Origin: Actinomycetota bacterium
GTDB taxonomy: Bacteria; Actinomycetota; Acidimicrobiia; Acidimicrobiales; CADCSY01
Length of the DNA stretch: 64,000 nt
Direction: 5' to 3'
Assembly (NCBI GenBank): GCA_016781135.1
Contig: JADDQY010000078.1
Coordinates: 79,834 to 143,833, forward strand
This document shows positions 1 to 8,702 of the stretch, piece by piece. Position 1 is the stretch's first letter. Every line of letters begins with the position of its first letter. The position numbers and the translations under genes were made by a program. The notes under the pieces are model-generated. The model did not search any database. It worked only from the letters and a program-made list of their open reading frames with translations, and was not told the DNA's origin.

Positions 1-320
1 GCCACCCACGGGAGCCTCTCCACGCTGCTGGCCGCCCTGGGGCCGGACAGCGTCGCCATCGGATCTCCCACGTCGATGCCCGACGCCCGCCCCACCTCGG
101 CGGGGTCGGTGCGCACCGCCCCGCGCACCACCACGCGATCGACGTCGAGCACCGGAGAGAGCACGACGACTGCACCACAGGCGGCGAGCACGCCCGCCCC
201 CGCCAGCGCGCCCAGTCGCCGCAGGCGCCGTCTCCCCTCGTGGCGACGGATCTCTCGGCGTCGTTCACGGATGCGGGGGTCGATGCCCGGCTCCCGGCGA
301 TCGGCGGAGGTCGCCGTCAC
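1..320 (-). CDS. ftsQ: Cell division protein FtsQ/DivIB (5' part; runs off the window edge)
   Basis: Not in the ORF track. A GTG at 320 overlaps the murB stop (GTGA). Manual translation gives MTATSADRREPGIDPRIRERRREIRRHEGRRRLRRLGALAGAGVLAACGAVVVLSPVLDVDRVVVRG...VERLPWV: basic N-terminus, one TM helix, start of a POTRA domain. dcw position fits. Confidence 0.85.
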   Translation of the reverse strand, partial: MTATSADRREPGIDPRIRERRREIRRHEGRRRLRRLGALAGAGVLAACGAVVVLSPVLDVDRVVVRGAVRTDPAEVGRASGIDVGDPMATLSGPRAASSVERLPWV

Positions 321-1258
321 CCCTCGTCCACCTCCGTCCCCGCCGCGCTGGGAAAGCCGACCAGCCGGAGCTCGGTGGCGAGCTCGACGCCGGTCACCGA
401 TCTCACCCGACGCCTGACCTCGGTGATCAGGGCGGCGACGTCGTCGGCGGAGCCTCCGGGTTCCGACTGGATGAAGTTGGCGTGCTTGTCCGACACCTGG
501 GCCGTGCCCAATCGCAGCCCCCGGCAGCCGGCCTCCTCCACCAGGCGCCCGGCGGCGTCGCCGGGCGGGTTGGCGAACACCGAGCCGGCGTTCTGCCCGC
601 CGGGTTGGTGCTCCCGCCGCCAGCGCACGACCTCGGCCACCTCGGCTCGGGCCGAAGCAGGATCACCGGGGTCGAGTCCGAACTCGGCGGCCACCACCAG
701 TTGGGCGGGGGCCAAGCTGGAACGGCGGTAGCCGAGATCGAGGGCGCCGGCGTCCACCACCCCATCGTGGCCGGTGCGAAGGTCCAAGACGCGGACCCTC
801 GCGAGGGTGGCGGCCATGTCGGACCCGTGCCCCCCGGCGTTCATCCGCACCCCCCCGCCCACCGATCCCGGCACCCCCACCGTCCACTCGAGCCCGCGCA
901 GTCCGGCGGCCGCGGTGCGCCGGGCCAGCACCGGGAGATCGGTGGCCCCGCCGGCGGTGGCCGTCGAAGCGCCGAGGGCAACGGTGGCGAACCCGGGGCC
1001 GAGGGCGACCGCCATCCCCGGAAAGCCGGCGTCGGCGACCAACAGGTTGGACCCCTTGCCCACGACCAGCACCTCCACCCCGGTCGCCTCGACCACCCCC
1101 GCGGCCAGGGCCAGATCGGCCTCGTCGTGGAGCGGGAAGAAGACCGCAGCCGGCCCGCCCACGCGGTAGGTCGTGCGGGGACCGAGGGGATGGTTGGTGA
1201 GCGCCCGTTCACCCAGCAGGCGAGCCGCCTCGATCGCCGCCTGCGAGCTCCGGATCAT
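317..1258 (-). CDS. murB: UDP-N-acetylenolpyruvoylglucosamine reductase
   Basis: Motifs TTYRVGGPA, GKGSNLLVAD, GVPGSVGGGVRMNAG, NAGSVFANP, VSDKHANFI; coupled to murC (ATGA overlap). Confidence 0.97.
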   Translation of the reverse strand: MIRSSQAAIEAARLLGERALTNHPLGPRTTYRVGGPAAVFFPLHDEADLALAAGVVEATGVEVLVVGKGSNLLVADAGFPGMAVALGPGFATVALGASTATAGGATDLPVLARRTAAAGLRGLEWTVGVPGSVGGGVRMNAGGHGSDMAATLARVRVLDLRTGHDGVVDAGALDLGYRRSSLAPAQLVVAAEFGLDPGDPASARAEVAEVVRWRREHQPGGQNAGSVFANPPGDAAGRLVEEAGCRGLRLGTAQVSDKHANFIQSEPGGSADDVAALITEVRRRVRSVTGVELATELRLVGFPSAAGTEVDEG

Positions 1259-2661
1259 CCCGCCGATCGGCTGGCTGCTCGGCGCCGGGCGAGCAGCTCC
1301 ATCACCTCATCGGGAACCGTGGTGAGGTCGCCGGCACCCAGGGTGAGGCAAAGATCGCCGGGGCGCAGCTCGGCCACCAGCCAGGCCAGGACGTCGCGCC
1401 GGCGAGGCAACCACGCCACTCGCCGACCGGGGGCAACGTCGAGGATGGCGTCGACCACGAGCTTGCCGGTGACGCCGGGTATCGGCGCCTGGCCGGCCGG
1501 ATAGATGTCGGTAACCGCGACCACGTCGGCGCCGTCGAAGGCGGACGCGAAGTCGCGCCACAGCGCGGCGGTGCGGGTGTAGCGGTGGGGCTGGAACACG
1601 CAGACGATCCGACGCCACCCGCCGTCACGGGCCGCCGCCACCGCCGCCGCCACCTCGCCGGGCAGGTGGTCGTAGCTGTCGACGAAGGCCACCCCGTCGA
1701 CCTCCCCTCGCCACTCGAAGCGCCGGGCGACGCCCGCGAAGCCGGCCAGGCCTCGCCCGGCTGCCTCGAACGACGCACCGAGCGCCATGGCCGCCACTGC
1801 CGCACCGGCGGCGTTGCGGGCGTTGTGGAGGCCGGGAAGGTTCACCCGAAGGCGGCCCAGCTCGACGCCGGCGTCGGCGAGGCTGAACGACACCGCCGAG
1901 CGGGCCGGCTCGACGTCACTCACCCCGTAGCGCGCCCCCGGGCCGGTGCCGTAGGACAAGTGGGGAAGCTCGGCGGCAACCCGGGCGGCACCCGGATCGT
2001 CGGTGCACACCACCCGCGGCCCCGGCGCCTCGGCGAGGAAGCGGGCGAAGGCCGAGAGCAAGGCGTCGACGCTGCCGTGATAGTCGAGGTGGTCGGGCTC
2101 CACGCTGGTGAGCACCACCGCCTCGGCGCCGAGCTCGAGGAAGGTGCCGTCGCTCTCGTCGGCCTCCACCAGGAACCACTCGCTGTCGTGCCACGCCGCG
2201 CTCTCGCCACCGCCGACGAGGTCGCCGCCGATGAGGAACGACGGACGCACGCCGGCCTCGGTGAGCACTGCCGCCAACATCGCCGTGGTGGTGGTCTTGC
2301 CGTGGGTGCCTCCCACGGCCAGCGTCCGCCGCAGGGCGCACACCGCGGCCAGGGCGGCGCTGCGCCGAACCACGGGGATCCCGGCCTGCCTGGCCCCCAC
2401 CAGCTCGGGGTTGTGCTCGGGGATGCCGGTGGAGGCCACCACCACCTCGGCCCCGGCGACGTGACGAGGGTCATGGCCGAGGTTGACGACCACGCCGAGC
2501 GCTGCCAGGCCCTCGGTGCGCGACGTCCGCGCCACGTCGCTGCCCGACACGGAGTGCCCCATGCCGGCCAGGATCCGGGCGAGCGGCGCCATCCCCGATC
2601 CGCCCACGCCCACCAGGTGGAGGCGCCGGGGACGGCCGAGATCGAGGATCGGCCCAGGCAC
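1255..2661 (-). CDS. murC: UDP-N-acetylmuramate--L-alanine ligase
   Basis: HLVGVGGSGM, GGTHGKTTTT, VEADESDGTF, DSYDHLPGE (DYAHHP-like), FQPHRYTRT. Start set at GTG 2661, 8 nt after a TATCGT -10 box; the ORF track starts at TTG 2670. Confidence 0.96.
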   Translation of the reverse strand: MPGPILDLGRPRRLHLVGVGGSGMAPLARILAGMGHSVSGSDVARTSRTEGLAALGVVVNLGHDPRHVAGAEVVVASTGIPEHNPELVGARQAGIPVVRRSAALAAVCALRRTLAVGGTHGKTTTTAMLAAVLTEAGVRPSFLIGGDLVGGGESAAWHDSEWFLVEADESDGTFLELGAEAVVLTSVEPDHLDYHGSVDALLSAFARFLAEAPGPRVVCTDDPGAARVAAELPHLSYGTGPGARYGVSDVEPARSAVSFSLADAGVELGRLRVNLPGLHNARNAAGAAVAAMALGASFEAAGRGLAGFAGVARRFEWRGEVDGVAFVDSYDHLPGEVAAAVAAARDGGWRRIVCVFQPHRYTRTAALWRDFASAFDGADVVAVTDIYPAGQAPIPGVTGKLVVDAILDVAPGRRVAWLPRRRDVLAWLVAELRPGDLCLTLGAGDLTTVPDEVMELLARRRAASRSAG

Positions 2662-2669
2662 GCTGCCCA

Positions 2670-2723
2670 ACGATACGGCGAGTCCGCTTGCGATGGAGCA
2701 CCCCGGACGAGGTCACCTATCCT
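2670..2723. promoter_or_regulatory. Putative back-to-back promoters: -10 TATCGT (minus, 2670-2675) for murC and -10 TATCCT (plus, 2718-2723) for the murG-like cassette
   Basis: Two TANNNT hexamers pointing in opposite directions in the divergent intergenic gap; no clear -35 boxes. Confidence 0.5.
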
Positions 2724-2962
2724 GCGGACGCCATGACCGGAGCCTGTCGCCCTCGCCGTGGGGCACTGCCTTTGGCCGCCGGCCACTCCCGCCCCCCCAG
2801 CCAACCTCGTCTTGGATGTCGGCCCTGCCCAGCGAAGCGAGCGCGGAGGTCGTGTGGGCCGGGGACGGCCGTGGTCGCCGGATCACCGGCGACCACGAAG
2901 CGGAGCGCCGCTCGTCGCCAGGGTGACAACGCTGGGGCGGGCGGAGCGAGTGGAGCGAGCGA

Positions 2963-4096
2963 GTGAGGCCGAACGTCGTCATCGCCGCCGGGGGGACGGG
3001 CGGGCACATCTTCCCCGGTCTGGCCGTCGCCGACGCCATCCGCCGGACCGAGCCCGCTGCCTCGGTGTCGTTCGTGGGCACCCGGAGGGGCCTGGAGACG
3101 ACGCTCATCCCCGGTGCCGGCTACGAGCTCGAGCTGATCGACATGGTCCCCTTCACGGGAAGGACAGCAGCGTTGCTCCCGGCCGCCCTGGTGCGGGCCA
3201 CGGCCCAAGCTCGGCGGATCCTGCGAGCCCGCCGAGCCGACGTCGTGGTGGGGATGGGCGCCTACCTGAGCGTCCCGGTCGTCGCCGCCGCCCGCCTGGC
3301 CGGGATCCCCTCGCTCGTGCACGAGTCGGGAGCGGTCCCCGGACGGGCCAACCTGGTCGCCGCCCGTCTGGGCGGCAACGTGGCCACGGCTTTCGCCGAG
3401 GCCGCCCCCGCCTTCGGCCACGCCGTCGTGCGGACGGTGGGCATGCCCCTCGGTCCCGAGCTCGTCGGCTTCGACCGCCAGGTGCTGCGCCCTGCGGCCC
3501 GCCACGCCCACCGGCTCGACGACGACACCCTCATGGTGCTGGTGAACGGCGGCAGCCAGGGTGCCAGCTCGCTCAACCGCCTGGCCATCGGCCTGGCCCG
3601 GCGTTGGCACGACCGCCACGACGTCCGAATCCTGTTGAAGGCCGGATCGCGTGACCACGAGCGCACCGAGGCCGAGCTGCGGGCGAGCCCCGGCGCGCAG
3701 CTGGTCGAGCTCACCCGCTTCATCGACCGCATGGACCACGCCTACGCCGCCGCCGACGTGGCCGTGTGTCGGCCGGGCGCCGGCACCGTCGCCGAGCTCG
3801 CCGTCGTCGGGCTGCCCGCCGTGCTCGTGCCCTATCCCCACGCCCCCTTCGACCACCAGGCGCGCAACGCCGCCGCCCTGGTCGCTGCCGGAGCCGCCCT
3901 CATGGTGCGTGACCACGAGGCCACTCCCGAGGTGGTCGGGCCCCTCCTCGAAGCCATCCTCGACGACCGGGAGCGCCTCGAGCAGATGTGCTCGGGGCTC
4001 GCCGGCATGGCCCACCCGCGTGCGGCCGACGAGCTGGCGGCGTGGGCCCTGAGCCTGTCCACCGAGCACCGGTGGGCAGCCGCCGACGCACCGTGA
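2963..4096 (+). CDS. murG: MurG-like GT28 glycosyltransferase (divergent; opposite strand to the dcw cluster)
   Basis: GGTGGHIFP, GGSQGA, RPGAGTVAE and DHQARNA are present, but HEQN reads HESG, GNPVR reads GMPLG and GGY reads GAY. Confidence 0.85.
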   Translation: MRPNVVIAAGGTGGHIFPGLAVADAIRRTEPAASVSFVGTRRGLETTLIPGAGYELELIDMVPFTGRTAALLPAALVRATAQARRILRARRADVVVGMGAYLSVPVVAAARLAGIPSLVHESGAVPGRANLVAARLGGNVATAFAEAAPAFGHAVVRTVGMPLGPELVGFDRQVLRPAARHAHRLDDDTLMVLVNGGSQGASSLNRLAIGLARRWHDRHDVRILLKAGSRDHERTEAELRASPGAQLVELTRFIDRMDHAYAAADVAVCRPGAGTVAELAVVGLPAVLVPYPHAPFDHQARNAAALVAAGAALMVRDHEATPEVVGPLLEAILDDRERLEQMCSGLAGMAHPRAADELAAWALSLSTEHRWAAADAP

Positions 4097-5139
4097 CCGC
4101 CGTCGTTGGCGCCGACGACGAGATCGGCCGAGTGTTCGAGCGCCTGCACGACAACGGCGTCGGCATCGCCGTGGTCGTCAGGGGTGACGTCGGCGGTGGT
4201 GGGGGCGTCGTGGGCACCATCTCCGACGGCGACATCCGCCGGGCCCACCTCCTCGGGCGGGGACTGACCACCAAGGTGTCGGAGGTCATGGGCGACGACC
4301 CGGCCATCGTGGAGCCCGAGACGCCCGACGACGAGGTGCGGGCGCTGCTCGAACGCCGCCGGCTCCCGGCCGCCGCCGTGGTGGAGGGGGGCCGGCTGGC
4401 CGGGCTGCGCCACCTCGACGAGGTCGGTGGCCACCAGCCGCCGGTGACCGCGGTGATCCTCGCCGGGGGCCGGGGACAACGCCTCCGCCCGCTCACCGAC
4501 AAGGTTCCCAAGCCGCTGCTCACGGTGGGTCGCACCACCATCGTGGAACGCCTCCTCGAGGGCCTGTGGGCGGCGGGCGTGGCCGACGTCTACCTGTCGG
4601 TCAACTACAAGGCTGAAGTGTTCGAGGAGCGCCTCGGCGACGGCGAGGGCTACGGGGTGCACCTTCGCTACCTGCGTGAGCGCACCGAGCTCAACACCGC
4701 CGGTCCCCTGTCGCTGCTGCCAGAGCGCCCCTCCGGTCCGATCCTCGTCATGAACGCCGACCAGGTCACCGCCCTGCACTTCGCCCGCTTGGTCGACTAC
4801 CACCGCCAGCAGGCGGCAGCGATCACCGTCGGCACCTTCGACTACGCCGTCAAGGTGCCCTACGGGGTGTTGCACCTCGAGGGCGACCGGATCACCGGCA
4901 TCGAGGAGAAGCCAACCCTGCACCGGCCGTGCAACGCCGGCATCTACGTCCTCGAGCCCGAGGTGGTCGGGCTCGTTCCGCCCGAGACCTTCTTCGGGAT
5001 GCCGAGCCTGGTCGAGCTGGTGCTCGCCCAGGGCGGCAAGGTGGTGTCGTTCCCGATCCTCGAGAAGTTCATCGACATCGGGACCCTGGAGGAGCTGGAA
5101 GCGGCACTCGTCCTGTTCGCCACCGGCGAGGAGGTGTGA
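4093..5139 (+). CDS. CBS-domain sugar-1-phosphate nucleotidyltransferase (PtmE/LegX-like)
   Basis: GTG overlaps the murG stop (GTGA). N-terminal CBS pair (GTISDGDIRR), then ILAGGRGQRLRPLTDKVPKPLL, VPYGVL, EEKP, NAGIYVL, DIG. Confidence 0.9.
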   Translation: MTAVVGADDEIGRVFERLHDNGVGIAVVVRGDVGGGGGVVGTISDGDIRRAHLLGRGLTTKVSEVMGDDPAIVEPETPDDEVRALLERRRLPAAAVVEGGRLAGLRHLDEVGGHQPPVTAVILAGGRGQRLRPLTDKVPKPLLTVGRTTIVERLLEGLWAAGVADVYLSVNYKAEVFEERLGDGEGYGVHLRYLRERTELNTAGPLSLLPERPSGPILVMNADQVTALHFARLVDYHRQQAAAITVGTFDYAVKVPYGVLHLEGDRITGIEEKPTLHRPCNAGIYVLEPEVVGLVPPETFFGMPSLVELVLAQGGKVVSFPILEKFIDIGTLEELEAALVLFATGEEV

Positions 5140-5141
5140 GC

Positions 5142-6128
5142 ATGGGCGGCTGGCACGGGCGCAAGGTCGTGGTGACCGGAGGTGAGGGCTTCATCGGCAG
5201 CACCCTCGTCGAGCGCCTGGTGCGTGAGGGGGCCGACGTGCGGGCCTTGGTCCACTACAACCCGTTCGGGAAGGCGGGCTGGCTCGATCCCGAGGTGCAC
5301 GCCGACGTCGAGGTCGTCCCCGGCGACGTGCGGGACGCCGAGCGGGTCTTCACCGCCGTCGACGGCCGCGAGGTCGTGTTCCACCTGGCGGCACTGATCG
5401 GCATCCCCTACAGCTATGCCGCCCCCGAGAGCTACGTGCAGGTGAACGTCACCGGGACCCACCACGTGGCCCGGGCGTGCCTGCGGGCCGGCGTCGAGCG
5501 CCTGGTGCACACCTCGACGAGCGAGACCTACGGCACCGCCCGCCGGGTACCCATCGCCGAGGACCACCCGCTCCAGCCCCAGTCGCCGTACTCGGCGTCG
5601 AAGATCGGCGCCGACATGATGGCCCTGTCGTTCTTCCATGCCTTCGCCCTGCCGGTGGCGGTGGTGCGCCCCTTCAACACCTACGGGCCCCGCCAGTCGA
5701 CCCGGGCGGTGATCCCCACCATTTTGGCCCAGCTCCACGGCGGCGCCAGCCGCATCGAGCTCGGCGCCACCTCCCCCACCCGTGACTTCAACTACGTCGA
5801 CGACACCGTGTCCGGCTTCCTCGCCGTCGCCGGCTGCGAGCGGGCGGTGGGCGAGGTCGTCAACATCGGTTCGGGCCGGGAGATCTCCATCGGTGACCTG
5901 GTGGCGCTGCTCATCGCCATCACCGGCAGCGAGGCGACCGTGGTGACCGATCCCGAGCGGCTGCGACCGGCCGGCAGCGAGGTGGAGCGGCTGGTGTGCG
6001 ACAACCGCCGGGCTCGGGAGTGGGCCGGATGGGAGCCGGCGGTCACCCTCGAGGAGGGCCTGGCCCGCACCTCGGCGTGGGTGGCCGAGCACCGCGGTGC
6101 CCTCGACACGTCGGGCTACTCGGTGTAG
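5142..6128 (+). CDS. NAD-dependent nucleotide-sugar 4,6-dehydratase (LegB-like extended SDR)
   Basis: VTGGEGFIGS, HLAALIGIPYSY, HTSTSETYG, YSASK (YxxxK), RPFNTYGPRQSTRAVIPTI, LRPAGSEVERL. ATG is 2 nt after the previous stop. Confidence 0.9.
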   Translation: MGGWHGRKVVVTGGEGFIGSTLVERLVREGADVRALVHYNPFGKAGWLDPEVHADVEVVPGDVRDAERVFTAVDGREVVFHLAALIGIPYSYAAPESYVQVNVTGTHHVARACLRAGVERLVHTSTSETYGTARRVPIAEDHPLQPQSPYSASKIGADMMALSFFHAFALPVAVVRPFNTYGPRQSTRAVIPTILAQLHGGASRIELGATSPTRDFNYVDDTVSGFLAVAGCERAVGEVVNIGSGREISIGDLVALLIAITGSEATVVTDPERLRPAGSEVERLVCDNRRAREWAGWEPAVTLEEGLARTSAWVAEHRGALDTSGYSV

Positions 6129-6135
6129 CCGCTCC

Positions 6136-7362
6136 TCAGGGCCGGAGCCGGCGACCGCCGCGGCGAGCGGCGGTGCCGGAGTGGTCAGGGGTGGCGTGGG
6201 CGGCGATGTTGAGCAGGATGCCGGTGGCGGCCATGGTGACGAGCAGGGAGGACCCGCCGAAGGAGACGAACGGCAGGGTCAGGCCGGTGATGGGCAGCAC
6301 CCCGACCACCCCACCGATGTTGACCAGGGCCTGGGCCAGGATCCAGGCGGTGATGCCCCCGGCGACGAGCATGCCGAAGCGATCAGGAGCGCCCAGGGCG
6401 GCGCGCATGCCGAGCATGCCGAAGGCGAGGAACAACGCCAGCACCAGGACGGCACCGACGAGGCCCAGCTCCTCGCCGATGATGGCGAAGATGAAGTCGG
6501 TGTGGGCGTTCGGCAGGAACCCGTACTTGGCCCGGCTCGCTCCCACCCCCACGCCAAACAGCCCGCCGGCCGCCAGGCCCGTGAGCGACTGGGTGATCTG
6601 GTAGCCGGTGTTCAGCGGGTCGGCGGTGGGGTGGAGGAACACGAGGAGCCGGTCGCGCCGGTAGCTCTCGCCCAGGGCGAGGAGCAGGGCAGCAGCCGTG
6701 CCGACGCCGACCACCCCGGACAGCCGGCCCACAGGGATCCCGGCGAGGAACAGGACCGACACCACGATGGCGCCCACCACCAGGGTGGTGCCGAGGTCGG
6801 GCTCCAACATGATCAACCCGGCGGTGAGGCCGGCCACGGCCAGCACCGGCCGCAGCGTCGACCGGCTGTCGTCGATGCGGTGGGCCCGGCGGCTGAGCAG
6901 GTCGGCGCAGAACAGCAGCAGCGCCACCTTGGCCAGCTCCGAGGGCTGCAGGCGGGCGGGGCCGAGCTCGATCCAGCTCCGGGCGCCGTTGACCTCGACG
7001 CCGATGGCCGGGTGCAGCACCACCACCAGCAGCACCGTGGCACAGCCGAGCAACAGCGGAGCCAGGCGCTGCCACCGGCGGTAATGGACCTTGGCCGTGA
7101 CCACGAGGGCGACGGTGGAGATGGCCAGCCACGTGGCCTGGCGACCGAAGTAGGTGAGGGTCGAGCCGGACTCGCGCAACGCCTGCACCGAGGAGGCGGA
7201 GAGCACCATGGCCAGCCCCACGACGTCGAGGACGATGACGACCACGGCCAACCCCACGAACGCTGCCGGGCGCCGCCGCCTGCTCCTGGGCGCGCCTCGC
7301 CTCGGGGCAGCGGCGGATGCGACAGGGGACGCCGAGGGGCCGACCGGCGGACGACCGGTCAC
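6136..7362 (-). CDS. ftsW: SEDS peptidoglycan polymerase FtsW
   Basis: MVLSASS, GARSWI, QPSELAK, EPDLGT, YQITQS, LPNAHTDFIFAIIGEELG, LPFVSFGGSS; GTG overlaps the murD stop. Confidence 0.96.
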   Translation of the reverse strand: MTGRPPVGPSASPVASAAAPRRGAPRSRRRRPAAFVGLAVVVIVLDVVGLAMVLSASSVQALRESGSTLTYFGRQATWLAISTVALVVTAKVHYRRWQRLAPLLLGCATVLLVVVLHPAIGVEVNGARSWIELGPARLQPSELAKVALLLFCADLLSRRAHRIDDSRSTLRPVLAVAGLTAGLIMLEPDLGTTLVVGAIVVSVLFLAGIPVGRLSGVVGVGTAAALLLALGESYRRDRLLVFLHPTADPLNTGYQITQSLTGLAAGGLFGVGVGASRAKYGFLPNAHTDFIFAIIGEELGLVGAVLVLALFLAFGMLGMRAALGAPDRFGMLVAGGITAWILAQALVNIGGVVGVLPITGLTLPFVSFGGSSLLVTMAATGILLNIAAHATPDHSGTAARRGGRRLRP

Positions 7363-8702
7363 GCCGGCACCGCCGCTGCCGCTCGCACCGCCCGAGCGAA
7401 GTCGTCGCCCCGCTCGGCGTAGGAGGAGTACCAGTCGTAGGAGGCGCAGCCCGGTGACAGCAGCACGGCGTCGCCCGGGTGGGCCCGGGCCCGAGCGGCG
7501 GCCACGGCGCCGTCCATGGAGGTGGCGACGGCGACGGGGACGAGCCCGGCGGCGAAGGCACGCTCCACCTCGGGGGCGGCCTCCCCGATGGCCACCACCG
7601 CCCGCAGCCGCGGGGCCAGCTCGGCCAGCACCGACAGGTCCAGGCCCTTGTTGCGCCCACCGGCGATCAACACCACCGACGGGAAGCCGGCGACGGCGGC
7701 GGCGGCGGCATGGGGATCGGTCGCCTTGGAGTCGTCGTAGTAGGCGACGCCGTCGAGCTCGCCGACGAGGCTGAGGCGATGGGGAAGGCCCGGGAACGAA
7801 CGCAGGGTCGACCGCACGGCCACGAGCGACGCACCGGCGGCGAGCGCGGTGGCCGCGGCGGCCAGGGCGTTGGTCACGTCGTGGGGCAGTCCTCGCCACA
7901 GCTCGTCGACCCCGAGCACGACCTCCCCGTCGGGCCCGGTCAGGGCGCCGTCGGCCACGCGCCAGTCACCGGCCGAGCCGAACGTCACGAGCCGCGAGGC
8001 GATCCCGGCGGCCCACGCCATGACCACGGGGTCGTCGGCGTTGGCCACCGCCACCTGGTGGGGGCTCTGGGCCGTCCAGATCCGGGCCTTGGCTGCCGCG
8101 TAGGCCTCCATGCTCGGGTGCCAGTCAAGGTGGTCCTCGGCGTGGTTCAGCCACACGGCCACGTTCGGCCGAAAGCTCGAGGTGAACTGCAGGCGGAACG
8201 AGGAGGCCTCGACCACCACCAGGTCGAGCTCGTCGTGGCGGGCGATGGCGTCGACGAGCGGCAGGTCGTTGTTGCCGGCGGCCACCGTGCGCAGGCCGCT
8301 GGCGGCGAGCATGCGCTCCACCATGGTGGTGACGGTGGTCTTGCCGTTGGTGCCGGTGACCGCCACCATCGGCAGCTGCGACCACCGGGCCGCCAGCTCG
8401 AGCTCGCTCCACACCGGCGTGCCCGAGGCGGTGGCGGCGGCGATGGCGGGGTGGGCGATCGGCACCCCCGGGCTGGGTACGACCAGATCGGCCTGGGCGA
8501 CGAGGGCCGACAGCTCCGGCGCCGAGGGGGCAGTGACGAAGGTGACCCCGCGGGCGCCGAGGCTCTCGGCCCGGGACCGGGCCGACGCCGACGGGCGGTC
8601 GTCGACCACCGTGGTCGCCCAACCCCGCTCGGCCAGGCGCCGGGCGGCCGCCTCGCCGGCAACGCCCAACCCCACCACCAGCACCCGGCCCGGGCCGCTC
8701 AT
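7359..8702 (-). CDS. murD: UDP-MurNAc-L-Ala--D-glutamate ligase
   Basis: VVGLGVAG, SPGVP, VTGTNGKTT, EASSFRL, NHAEDHLDWH, HRL, DDSKATD, LLSPGCASYD. Confidence 0.96.
   Translation of the reverse strand: MSGPGRVLVVGLGVAGEAAARRLAERGWATTVVDDRPSASARSRAESLGARGVTFVTAPSAPELSALVAQADLVVPSPGVPIAHPAIAAATASGTPVWSELELAARWSQLPMVAVTGTNGKTTVTTMVERMLAASGLRTVAAGNNDLPLVDAIARHDELDLVVVEASSFRLQFTSSFRPNVAVWLNHAEDHLDWHPSMEAYAAAKARIWTAQSPHQVAVANADDPVVMAWAAGIASRLVTFGSAGDWRVADGALTGPDGEVVLGVDELWRGLPHDVTNALAAAATALAAGASLVAVRSTLRSFPGLPHRLSLVGELDGVAYYDDSKATDPHAAAAAVAGFPSVVLIAGGRNKGLDLSVLAELAPRLRAVVAIGEAAPEVERAFAAGLVPVAVATSMDGAVAAARARAHPGDAVLLSPGCASYDWYSSYAERGDDFARAVRAAAAVPA

What the first reader, a model, noticed from the sequence alone, without database searches (positions are those of the whole stretch)
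2963..6128. Inverted MurG-like / GDP-sugar cassette occupying the murG slot of the dcw cluster
Seen: between ftsW and murC, where murG normally lies, three tightly coupled genes run on the opposite strand: a MurG-like GT28, a CBS-nucleotidyltransferase and a 4,6-dehydratase. No other murG is in the window. Known: CBS-nucleotidyltransferase (PtmE) and LegB-type dehydratase act early in the GDP-linked legionaminic/bacillosamine pathway, and MurG paralogues that can replace MurG (MglA) have been described in filamentous actinomycetes. Inference: this is either a foreign cassette that displaced the native murG, or a module that makes an activated (possibly 6-deoxy) HexNAc and transfers it to lipid I or undecaprenyl phosphate. 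That would be a candidate undescribed peptidoglycan- or wall-glycan-modifying system. It is the strongest candidate for a new system in this window.
Basis: partly seen in the sequence, partly recalled or inferred. Interest (0 to 1): 0.8.

Follow-up and report, generated by a model that had tools for sequence, protein, structure and literature searches.

The report
Mobile murG module replaces native murG
The only gene this soil actinobacterium has for the last cytoplasmic step of cell-wall precursor synthesis (murG) is a foreign variant that travels as a fixed three-gene unit with two sugar-activating enzymes, which hints at an undescribed link between lipid II synthesis and a 6-deoxy amino sugar.

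Summary
Between ftsW and murC, which lie on the minus strand, three tightly coupled plus-strand genes sit in the murG slot. They are a GT28 MurG (2963-4096), a CBS-nucleotidyltransferase (4093-5139) and a LegB-like SDR dehydratase (5142-6128). Independent assemblies from three studies span both junctions.

This GT28 is the only murG in a 98.8%-complete genome. The inverted arrangement is kept across the whole family.

- In another actinobacterial class it lies co-directionally as ftsW-murG-NTase-dehydratase-murC.
- In two further genomes it lies outside dcw, and ftsW abuts murC there.
- In Streptomyces a related GT28+dehydratase pair is an accessory locus beside a two-component system.

All trio MurGs form one clade. 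That clade is incongruent with the flanking MurC (AU p = 2e-13), so the native murG was displaced. Every trio MurG carries Gly in place of the otherwise invariant Asn128 (30/30 against 0/74).

The two sugar genes do not feed legionaminic acid, because NeuB is absent. The GT28 is not MglA. Whether the MurG variant itself uses the sugar the module makes is untested; I put that at about 0.3. I found no published description.

The parts
317..1258 (-). murB (UDP-N-acetylenolpyruvoylglucosamine reductase), downstream of murC
   Evidence: Pfam MurB_C and FAD_binding_4.
1255..2670 (-). murC. It is cut off from the upstream dcw operon by the inverted trio, so it needs its own promoter.
   Evidence: TIGR01082 420.7 bits, over the cut-off. 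The MurC tree places it with MurC of the same order, support 100.
2671..2962 (.). 292-bp divergent intergenic region between murC and murG. The promoters of both units are presumed to lie here.
   Evidence: Read from the sequence. No sigma-70 consensus match. All four metagenome runs carry one extra G behind position 2681.
2963..4096 (+). Trio-type MurG (GT28), the only lipid II synthase gene of the genome. It retains GGTGGH, GGSQG, the aligned F244/I245 positions, the E269 equivalent and DHQxxNA. It has HESG in place of HEQN (Asn128 to Gly) and GAGT in place of GA(L/T)T.
   Evidence: Trees. AU test.
4093..5139 (+). CBS-pair plus sugar-1-phosphate nucleotidyltransferase (PtmE-like architecture). 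Its GTG start overlaps the murG stop (GTGA).
   Evidence: Pfam CBS and NTP_transferase. Best solved relatives are GMPPB 7d72 and MurU 4y7t. The motif GGRGQRLRPLTDKVPKP was read directly.
5142..6128 (+). LegB-like NAD-dependent SDR, a presumed HexNAc 4,6-dehydratase. It has GxxGxxG, TSE and YxxxK, and is the most conserved gene of the trio (70-94% identity within the family).
   Evidence: TIGR04180 447.5 bits against a cut-off of 475; the next family scores 163.6. PDB best hits are Pal 6bwl, DesIV and TunA.
6136..7362 (-). ftsW, convergent with the dehydratase. The two stop codons are 7 nt apart. Its GTG start at 7362 overlaps the murD stop.
   Evidence: TIGR02614 382.7 bits. Start codons.
7359..8702 (-). 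murD, upstream member of the dcw operon
   Evidence: Pfam MurD-like_N, Mur_ligase_M and Mur_ligase_C. Start codon.

Best explanation
This is a three-gene module that moves horizontally: a distinct MurG lineage, a CBS-regulated sugar-1-phosphate nucleotidyltransferase and a LegB-like SDR dehydratase. In this Acidimicrobiales family it has displaced the native murG and now sits, inverted, in the dcw murG slot.

Shown: the GT28 is the only murG homologue of the genome. It keeps the aligned positions of the catalytic His19 G-loop and of the UDP-sugar binding residues. All trio MurGs form one clade that conflicts with the history of the neighbouring murC, ftsW and murD.

Inferred: it is the cell's lipid II synthase, transferring a HexNAc from a nucleotide sugar to the MurNAc 4-OH of lipid I.

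Inferred from family membership: the nucleotidyltransferase activates GlcN-1-P or GlcNAc-1-P, probably with GTP as PtmE does. The SDR then oxidises C4 and removes water across C5-C6, giving an NDP-2-acetamido-2,6-dideoxy-hexos-4-ulose or a close derivative.

Inferred from co-inheritance: the three proteins work in one envelope pathway tied to the lipid II step. The sugar is either the MurG variant's own alternative donor, or it feeds a wall-glycan step that needs this MurG lineage.

My odds: displacement by a foreign module whose GT28 is the sole lipid II synthase, about 0.85. Functional coupling of the trio, about 0.6. MurG itself transferring the module's sugar, about 0.3.
For: Sole copy:
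- This GT28 is the only murG in G000.
- The trio-type MurG is also the only murG in G026 (f3), G036 (f13), three f60 genomes, G629 (f113) and G334. All 41 relatives hold a MurG match, nearly all exactly one.

The trio is kept as a unit in four contexts:
- Inverted between ftsW and murC in every f1 locus with enough flank.
- Co-directional as murD-ftsW-murG-NTase-dehydratase-murC-murB in f60.
- Outside dcw, among unrelated genes, in G334 and G629. In both of those genomes ftsW directly abuts murC.
- As an accessory GT28+dehydratase+HAD locus beside a two-component system in Streptomyces genomes that keep a canonical murG.

Phylogeny:
- All trio MurGs plus the Streptomyces accessory copies form one clade (97). 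It is separate from the same-order canonical MurGs.
- The AU test rejects uniting the cassette MurGs with the same-order MurGs (p = 2e-13).
- MurC of the same loci groups with the same order, support 100.
- In f60, MurC, FtsW and MurD are 58-69% identical to the L072 group, but MurG is 40% identical to L072 and 58% identical to this window's MurG.

Active site:
- Asn128 is Gly in 30/30 trio MurGs and Asn in 74/74 others. Position 265 is Gly in 29/30 trio MurGs.
- Both residues line the UDP-GlcNAc site of E. coli MurG (PMC10966019).

Other points:
- The genes are translationally coupled (GTGA overlap, then a 2-nt gap).
- GlmU is present whether or not the trio is, so the nucleotidyltransferase is an extra enzyme.
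- PtmE is GTP-specific and LegB accepts only GDP-GlcNAc (PMC5378307).
Against: - No biochemical data exist for any member.
- The trio has no 4-reductase or aminotransferase. A 4-keto sugar is a poor glycosyl donor, and its missing 4-OH would block glycan polymerisation.
- The aligned uridine-pocket positions (F244/I245, E269) are unchanged. E. coli MurG binds GDP at least 10 times less well than UDP (PMC5039524). A GDP-linked product therefore fits this MurG poorly.
- The genome has a PglC-like phosphoglycosyltransferase next to a DegT aminotransferase on contig C64, and several other sugar-nucleotide clusters. Any of these could consume the sugar.
- The Streptomyces accessory copies keep Asn128 and lack the nucleotidyltransferase.
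- The SDR scores below the LegB equivalog cut-off.
- The AU-test group was named after the tree had been seen.
Confidence: 0.6

Rival explanations
1. The MurG is ordinary and the sugar genes are hitch-hikers. The GT28 is a conventional UDP-GlcNAc:lipid I transferase. The nucleotidyltransferase and dehydratase make the first intermediate of a separate envelope glycan, for example a bacillosamine- or QuiNAc-type sugar for a protein glycan, an S-layer glycan or a wall polymer. On this view the genes stay next to murG only for co-regulation with wall growth, or by historical accident.
For: - The GT28 passes the MurG equivalog cut-off and keeps the UDP-sugar binding residues.
- The trio has no reductase or aminotransferase, so other loci must finish the sugar.
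- The genome holds a PglC-like transferase plus DegT at a contig end, and several other SDR/NTase/GT4 clusters.
- In relatives without the trio, the closest dehydratase orthologues sit in ordinary dehydratase-NTase-SDR(-GT4) modules away from murG.
- MglA shows that divergent MurG paralogues can make normal lipid II (PMC8092295).
Against: - Hitch-hiking does not explain why the three genes move together into four unrelated contexts and replace the resident murG each time.
- It does not explain why an otherwise invariant active-site Asn is lost in exactly these MurGs.
- DegT is missing from trio-bearing G629, G011 and G012, and NeuB is missing from nearly all trio-bearing genomes. No common downstream consumer is therefore visible.
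Confidence: 0.3
2. The trio MurG has diverged vertically without any foreign origin. It is the native murG, evolved fast after two sugar genes were inserted beside it. The tree incongruence would then be a long-branch or compositional artefact.
For: - MurG evolves fast in this class. Canonical MurGs of the same order are 34-43% identical to the trio MurG, while some from other orders reach 48%.
- The canonical same-order group sits on a long stem of 0.68-0.85.
- The trio occupies the native slot in f1 and f60.
Against: - Trio MurGs from different classes are 52-59% identical to each other but about 40% identical to the canonical MurGs of their own nearest relatives. Their MurC, FtsW and MurD follow the organismal groupings.
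- The AU test gives p = 2e-13.
- Trio copies lie outside dcw with an empty slot left behind.
- An accessory copy coexists with canonical murG in Streptomyces.
Confidence: 0.07
3. The inversion is an assembly or binning artefact.
For: The genome is a fragmented MAG of 133 contigs.
Against: Independent contigs from three studies cross both junctions. The same arrangement is found in every f1 locus with enough flank, from 24 other genomes of the family.
Confidence: 0.01

Closest known systems
Canonical MurG (E. coli MurG, PDB 1F0K/1NLM; TIGR01133)
   Same: It has the two-domain GT28 fold and aligns at about 150-170 bits to solved MurGs. The aligned GGTGGH loop with His19, GGSQG, F244/I245, the E269 equivalent and DHQxxNA are kept. 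It is the sole copy in a genome with a full mur/ftsW set, and it sits in the dcw cluster.
   Different: - Asn128 of HEQN is Gly, Gln127 is Ser or Pro, Leu133 is Arg/Lys/Gln, and position 265 is Gly.
- It belongs to a separate clade that crosses class boundaries.
- It is always followed by a CBS-nucleotidyltransferase and a LegB-like SDR.
- Here it is transcribed against the rest of dcw.
MglA, the alternative lipid II synthase of Kitasatospora viridifaciens (PMC8092295)
   Same: It is a non-canonical MurG-family protein that can be the working lipid II synthase. Streptomyces genomes carry relatives of the trio MurG as extra copies outside dcw.
   Different: - The MglA-type sequence (L144, matched to the published mglA primers) is 30% identical and sits on a separate long branch.
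- MglA coexists with MurG and has no described sugar-nucleotide partners.
- Here the variant is the only MurG and is welded to two sugar enzymes.
PtmE (Cj1329) + LegB (Cj1319), the first dedicated steps of the GDP-linked CMP-legionaminic acid pathway (PMC5378307 and the work it cites)
   Same: The nucleotidyltransferase has the CBS-pair plus NTP_transferase architecture. The SDR's best family by far is LegB (447.5 bits against 163.6 for the next). The two genes are adjacent.
   Different: - The SDR scores below the LegB cut-off.
- There is no LegI/NeuB in this genome or in 22 of the 25 f1 genomes searched.
- The aminotransferase is patchy.
- The pair is operonic with murG instead of legC/H/G/I/F.
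Ordinary NTase-dehydratase-reductase-GT4 'make and transfer' sugar modules (e.g. G236 locus L145)
   Same: It has the same logic of activating enzyme, 4,6-dehydratase and a glycosyltransferase in one unit. The G236 dehydratase is 69% identical.
   Different: The transferase here is the essential MurG rather than a GT4. No second SDR (reductase) is present. The nucleotidyltransferase carries a CBS pair.

Membership tests
MurG (lipid II synthase, GT28, TIGR01133) | Both GT28 domains are present and the equivalog HMM score is over the curated cut-off | tested here: met
   PF03033 and PF04101 both match. TIGR01133 scores 253.8 bits against a cut-off of 250.25.
MurG (lipid II synthase, GT28, TIGR01133) | The G-loop with catalytic His19 and the donor-binding residues (S192 loop, F244/I245, E269, Q288/Q289) are present | tested here: met
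   GGTGGH, GGSQG, RFIDRM, AELA and DHQARNA align with E. coli MurG.
MurG (lipid II synthase, GT28, TIGR01133) | The invariant HEQN motif (Asn128) in the inter-domain cleft is present | tested here: not met
   The motif is HESG here. Position 128 is Gly in 30/30 trio MurGs and Asn in 74/74 other MurGs.
MurG (lipid II synthase, GT28, TIGR01133) | It is the only candidate for the step in a genome that has the rest of the pathway | tested here: met
   There is one match in the 98.8%-complete genome. murB, murC, murD and ftsW lie beside it.
MurG (lipid II synthase, GT28, TIGR01133) | It transfers GlcNAc from UDP-GlcNAc to lipid I | not testable with these tools
   This needs an enzyme assay or a complementation test.
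MglA-type alternative lipid II synthase | The sequence groups with K. viridifaciens MglA | tested here: not met
   The MglA-like L144 (termini match the published primers) is 30% identical and lies outside the trio clade.
MglA-type alternative lipid II synthase | It is an extra copy outside dcw that coexists with canonical murG | tested here: not met
   It is the sole copy here and lies inside dcw. Only the Streptomyces relatives L066, L067 and L166 fit this feature.
LegB (TIGR04180, GDP-GlcNAc 4,6-dehydratase) | The equivalog HMM score is over the cut-off | tested here: not met
   It scores 447.5 bits against a cut-off of 475, although the next family scores only 163.6. Some orthologues at 82-84% identity are named LegB by NCBI.
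LegB (TIGR04180, GDP-GlcNAc 4,6-dehydratase) | The SDR catalytic set is present (GxxGxxG, Ser/Thr-Glu, YxxxK) | tested here: met
   GGEGFIGS, TSTSETYG and YSASK were read from the translation.
LegB (TIGR04180, GDP-GlcNAc 4,6-dehydratase) | It is part of a legionaminic acid pathway (LegI/NeuB synthase present) | tested here: not met
   PF03102 is absent from G000 and from 22 of the 25 f1 genomes searched.
PtmE (GlcN-1-P guanylyltransferase) | An N-terminal CBS pair is fused to an NTP_transferase domain | tested here: met
   Pfam CBS and PF00483 both match in the window protein and in the f60 and f113 orthologues.
PtmE (GlcN-1-P guanylyltransferase) | It is specific for GTP and GlcN-1-P | not testable with these tools
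   No PtmE-specific model or structure is available. The best solved relatives are GMPPB and MurU, with similar scores.

The most novel reading that the evidence does not exclude
The trio is a self-contained 'make and transfer' pathway. The Gly128/Gly265 MurG variant would transfer the sugar made by its two partners (a 6-deoxy, 4-keto or 5,6-ene HexNAc) to lipid I. Whole lineages of soil Actinomycetota would then build peptidoglycan, or part of their lipid-linked wall precursor pool, with a sugar other than GlcNAc. In Streptomyces the same chemistry would be an inducible envelope-remodelling response under a two-component system, comparable in logic to VanRS-controlled precursor reprogramming.
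Probability: 0.3. Interest if true: 0.95.

Novelty: new variant of a known kind. Interest (0 to 1): 0.72.

Why it matters
MurG and the GlcNAc-MurNAc backbone are among the most conserved features of bacteria, and murG's place in the dcw cluster is a textbook constant. Here an essential housekeeping gene has been replaced, at least twice and across class boundaries, by a foreign lineage. That lineage never travels without two sugar-nucleotide enzymes, and it has lost an otherwise invariant active-site residue.

If the coupling is biochemical, it would be the first natural change of the GlcNAc unit at the level of precursor synthesis. That would bear on recognition by lysozyme and by lipid II-binding antibiotics.

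If the coupling is not biochemical, this is still a clear case of xenologous displacement inside dcw. It also adds a new MurG subfamily beside MglA. The culturable Streptomyces strains that carry the accessory version make the question testable by experiment.

Tried and rejected
- **Legionaminic-acid pathway:** rejected. NeuB is absent from this genome and from 22 of the 25 f1 genomes searched, and DegT is patchy.
- **The GT28 is MglA:** rejected. The MglA-type sequence L144 is 30% identical and lies elsewhere in the tree.
- **The nucleotidyltransferase replaces GlmU:** rejected. GlmU homologues occur with and without the trio.
- **Misassembly:** rejected.
only partly upheld. Bona fide Actinomycetales MurGs also have degenerate GNPVR (Streptomyces GIPLR, Rothia GMPMK, Pseudokineococcus GLPMA), and Arg164 varies both inside and outside the clade. 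Only Asn128 to Gly is fully diagnostic, with positions 127, 133, 218 and 265 close behind.
- **Promoter and terminator scan of the divergent intergenic region:** found nothing.
- **Literature on the role of Asn128:** Hu et al. 2003 (PMC298689) is not held, and a search on the residue name gave nothing useful. The roles of residues 128, 164 and 265 therefore rest on a docking paper and on my recollection of Crouvoisier et al. 2007.
- **Homologue searches with MurG and with the dehydratase:** the best 120 hits were all clade members (at least 57% and 76% identical). They gave no contexts outside the clade.
- **Search for a conserved reductase partner:** not possible with the tools. tblastn of this genome shows only that several other SDR sugar enzymes exist.
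Full report
**1. What is there**

The window has 74% G+C. On the minus strand it carries the distal part of a dcw cluster:
- murD, 7359-8702
- ftsW, 6136-7362
- murC, 1255-2670
- murB, 317-1258

These identifications come from Pfam and NCBIfam. The start codons were checked.

Three plus-strand genes lie exactly where murG is expected:
- A GT28 with both MurG domains, at 2963-4096. It scores 253.8 bits on TIGR01133, against a cut-off of 250.25.
- A protein with a CBS pair and an NTP_transferase domain, at 4093-5139.
- An SDR at 5142-6128. Its best family by far is LegB (TIGR04180, 447.5 bits against a cut-off of 475). The next family, dTDP-glucose dehydratase, scores 163.6 bits.

The murG stop and the next start overlap as GTGA. 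The SDR start lies 3 nt after the preceding stop, behind a GGAGGAGG box. The dehydratase and the convergent ftsW end 7 nt apart.

**2. It is not an artefact and not a one-off**

Metagenome contigs from three separate studies contain this stretch. One 4957-nt contig spans 2000-6510. Shorter contigs from the other studies cross both junctions.

In 40 relatives, every locus from family f1 whose flanks reach far enough shows murC diverging from murG-NTase-dehydratase. That covers 24 other genomes in 12 genera. G036 (family f13) carries murG-NTase in the flank that was fetched. For G026 (f3) only the trio-type MurG itself was seen. MurG identity across these loci is 53-86%.

Three other families of the same order have the canonical co-directional ftsW-murG-murC. 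Their MurG is only about 40% identical to this one, although their MurC (56-58%) and FtsW (55-59%) are closer.

**3. It is the only murG**

The 98.8%-complete genome has a single MurG match. The same is true of G026 (f3), G036 (f13) and the further trio-bearing genomes named below. All 41 relatives hold a MurG match, nearly all exactly one. With murA-F-type ligases, ftsW and the rest present, this protein must be the lipid II synthase. That is an inference.

**4. The trio is a unit found well beyond this family**

A sample of the phylum with the dehydratase as query found further arrangements:
- Family f60 belongs to another class. All three of its sampled genomes have murD-ftsW-murG-NTase-dehydratase-murC-murB, all co-directional.
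- G629 (family f113, 58% G+C) has the trio among unrelated genes: an ABC-F ATPase, a PIN toxin and a histidine kinase.
- G334 also has the trio among unrelated genes.
- In G334 and G629 the dcw cluster reads murD-ftsW-murC-murB, with ftsW directly abutting murC. The murG slot is empty there.
- Streptomyces sp. BI20, Streptomyces sp. NPDC048659 and G516 keep their canonical dcw murG. They also carry an extra GT28, 48-52% identical to this one, whose stop overlaps the start of a dehydratase 68% identical to this one. In BI20 a HAD hydrolase follows, and the unit diverges from a histidine kinase/response regulator pair.

The inversion seen in this window is therefore a family-specific rearrangement of a widely kept three-gene block.

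**5. Foreign origin**

Two MurG trees were built, with 103 rows and with 36 rows. In both:
- All trio MurGs (f1, G334, f60, f113) plus the Streptomyces accessory copies form one clade, with SH-aLRT support 97-98.
- Its sister is one canonical MurG of an unplaced Actinomycetota MAG (L068).
- The canonical MurGs of this window's own order lie elsewhere.

Forcing the cassette MurGs together with the same-order MurGs costs 75 log-likelihood units (AU p = 2e-13). One caveat applies: the group was defined after the tree had been seen.

The control behaves as vertical descent predicts. MurC from the same loci groups with the same-order MurC, support 100.

The same conflict holds in f60. Its MurC, FtsW and MurD are 58-69% identical to those of the L072 group, which has a canonical HEQN MurG. 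Its MurG is 40% identical to L072 and 58% identical to this window's MurG.

The simplest reading is that the module moved between classes and displaced the resident murG at least twice.

**6. What distinguishes the MurG variant**

The donor side looks conventional. GGTGGH (with His19), GGSQG, the aligned F244/I245 pocket positions, the Glu269 equivalent and DHQxxNA are all kept.

A scan for clade-specific positions compared 30 trio MurGs with 74 other MurGs, in E. coli numbering:

| Position | Trio MurGs | Other MurGs |
|---|---|---|
| 128 | Gly, 30/30 | Asn, 74/74 |
| 127 | Ser or Pro | Gln |
| 133 | Arg, Lys or Gln | Leu |
| 218 | Lys, 30/30 | mostly Leu, Ile or Val |
| 265 | Gly, 29/30 | mostly Thr or Ser (Leu in E. 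coli) |

An earlier first-reader note (e1-5252507) also listed GNPVR to GMPLG as a deviation. That change is not diagnostic, because genuine Actinomycetales MurGs are degenerate at the same place.

Asn128, Leu265, His19 and Arg164 line the UDP-GlcNAc site in E. coli MurG (PMC10966019). The Streptomyces accessory copies keep Asn128 (HESN).

Two glycines facing the cleft suggest a roomier sugar or acceptor pocket. That is inference only.

**7. What the two sugar enzymes do and do not do**

The CBS-plus-nucleotidyltransferase architecture and the LegB-like SDR match the first two dedicated steps of the GDP-linked legionaminic acid route. In that route PtmE is GTP-specific, and LegB accepts only GDP-GlcNAc, producing GDP-2-acetamido-2,6-dideoxy-xylo-hexos-4-ulose (PMC5378307).

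The rest of that pathway is missing, however:
- The NeuB/LegI synthase is absent from this genome and from 22 of the 25 f1 genomes searched.
- DegT aminotransferases are patchy. They are absent from the nearly complete G011 and G012 and from G629.

The nucleotidyltransferase is not a substitute for GlmU, which is present with and without the trio.

Solved relatives of the SDR include Pal, DesIV and TunA at similar scores, so the exact chemistry is open. It could be a 4-keto-6-deoxy product or a 5,6-ene.

In relatives without the trio, the closest dehydratase orthologues sit in ordinary dehydratase-NTase-SDR(-GT4) modules away from murG.

This genome also has a PglC-like phosphoglycosyltransferase next to a DegT at a contig end, and several other SDR clusters. 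A separate consumer of the sugar is therefore possible here.

**8. Weighing the readings**

I consider two things well supported, at about 0.85:
- The GT28 is the sole lipid II synthase.
- It arrived as part of a foreign module.

I put functional coupling of the three genes at about 0.6. The block survives insertion, inversion and relocation. It replaces the resident murG each time. It also correlates perfectly with the loss of Asn128.

I put MurG itself transferring the module's sugar at about 0.3. The evidence against it is:
- The trio has no reductase.
- Glycan polymerisation needs a 4-OH.
- The aligned uridine-pocket positions are unchanged, while the sugar is probably GDP-linked.
- E. coli MurG binds GDP at least 10 times less well than UDP (PMC5039524).

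The main rival, at about 0.3, is an ordinary MurG whose neighbours feed another wall or surface glycan.

**9. Comparison with what is known, and novelty**

- The protein is MurG-like in fold, score and genomic role, but fails one defining invariant (Asn128).
- It is not MglA. L144, whose termini match the published mglA primers, is 30% identical and lies outside the trio clade.
- The partner enzymes resemble PtmE and LegB but are not part of a Leg pathway.
- A full-text search for murG + dcw + nucleotidyltransferase + dehydratase returned no paper. A search for murG/dcw/Acidimicrobiia returned nothing relevant.
- Public annotation names these proteins plain MurG and 'SDR family oxidoreductase'.
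- Earlier agents of this scan met the same trio in other genomes. Their notes were leads. The co-directional form, the relocated form, the foreign origin and the HE[S/P]G change were all re-derived here from new searches.

I class the finding as a new variant of a known kind. It has a realistic chance of turning out to be a new kind of peptidoglycan precursor chemistry.

Noticed in passing
The genome search: family f34 / genus g69 of the same class: More than 20 genomes of 0.9-1.1 Mb (87-94% complete) gave no MurG match at E<=1e-20 with this MurG as query. Nearly all other genomes of the class did. This could be sequence divergence or a real loss.
   Followed up: no
G000:C67:21008-22051 and the Acidimicrobiales rows: GlmU matches in this order cover only model positions 2-345 of 452. 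They lie in ORFs of about 370 aa and mostly fall below the TIGR01173 cut-off. This holds for trio-bearing and canonical genomes alike. The other-class genomes have full-length GlmU. The acetyltransferase part may be shortened in this order.
   Followed up: no
window 2681: All four metagenome runs carry one extra G behind position 2681, in the murC-murG intergenic region, relative to the window.
   Followed up: no
window 6126-6138: The stop codons of the dehydratase and of the convergent ftsW are 7 nt apart, with no room for a terminator. Transcription of the upstream dcw operon would therefore run antisense into the trio.
   Followed up: partly
L066:3637-8967 (Streptomyces sp. BI20, 2.0-Mb 'plasmid'): The accessory MurG-like gene, the dehydratase and a HAD hydrolase diverge from a histidine kinase/response regulator pair. 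This looks like an inducible envelope-remodelling locus in a culturable strain.
   Followed up: partly
G000:C64:24681-26584: A PglC-like phosphoglycosyltransferase ([22 protein letters not shown] motif) is followed by a DegT aminotransferase, cut off by the contig end. This is probably the start of a bacillosamine-type glycan cluster.
   Followed up: partly
L170 (G334:C9:772000-783000): murD, ftsW and murB of this long-read MAG come as split tblastn pieces. This suggests frameshift errors in the assembly.
   Followed up: no
It was not examined here.
   Followed up: no
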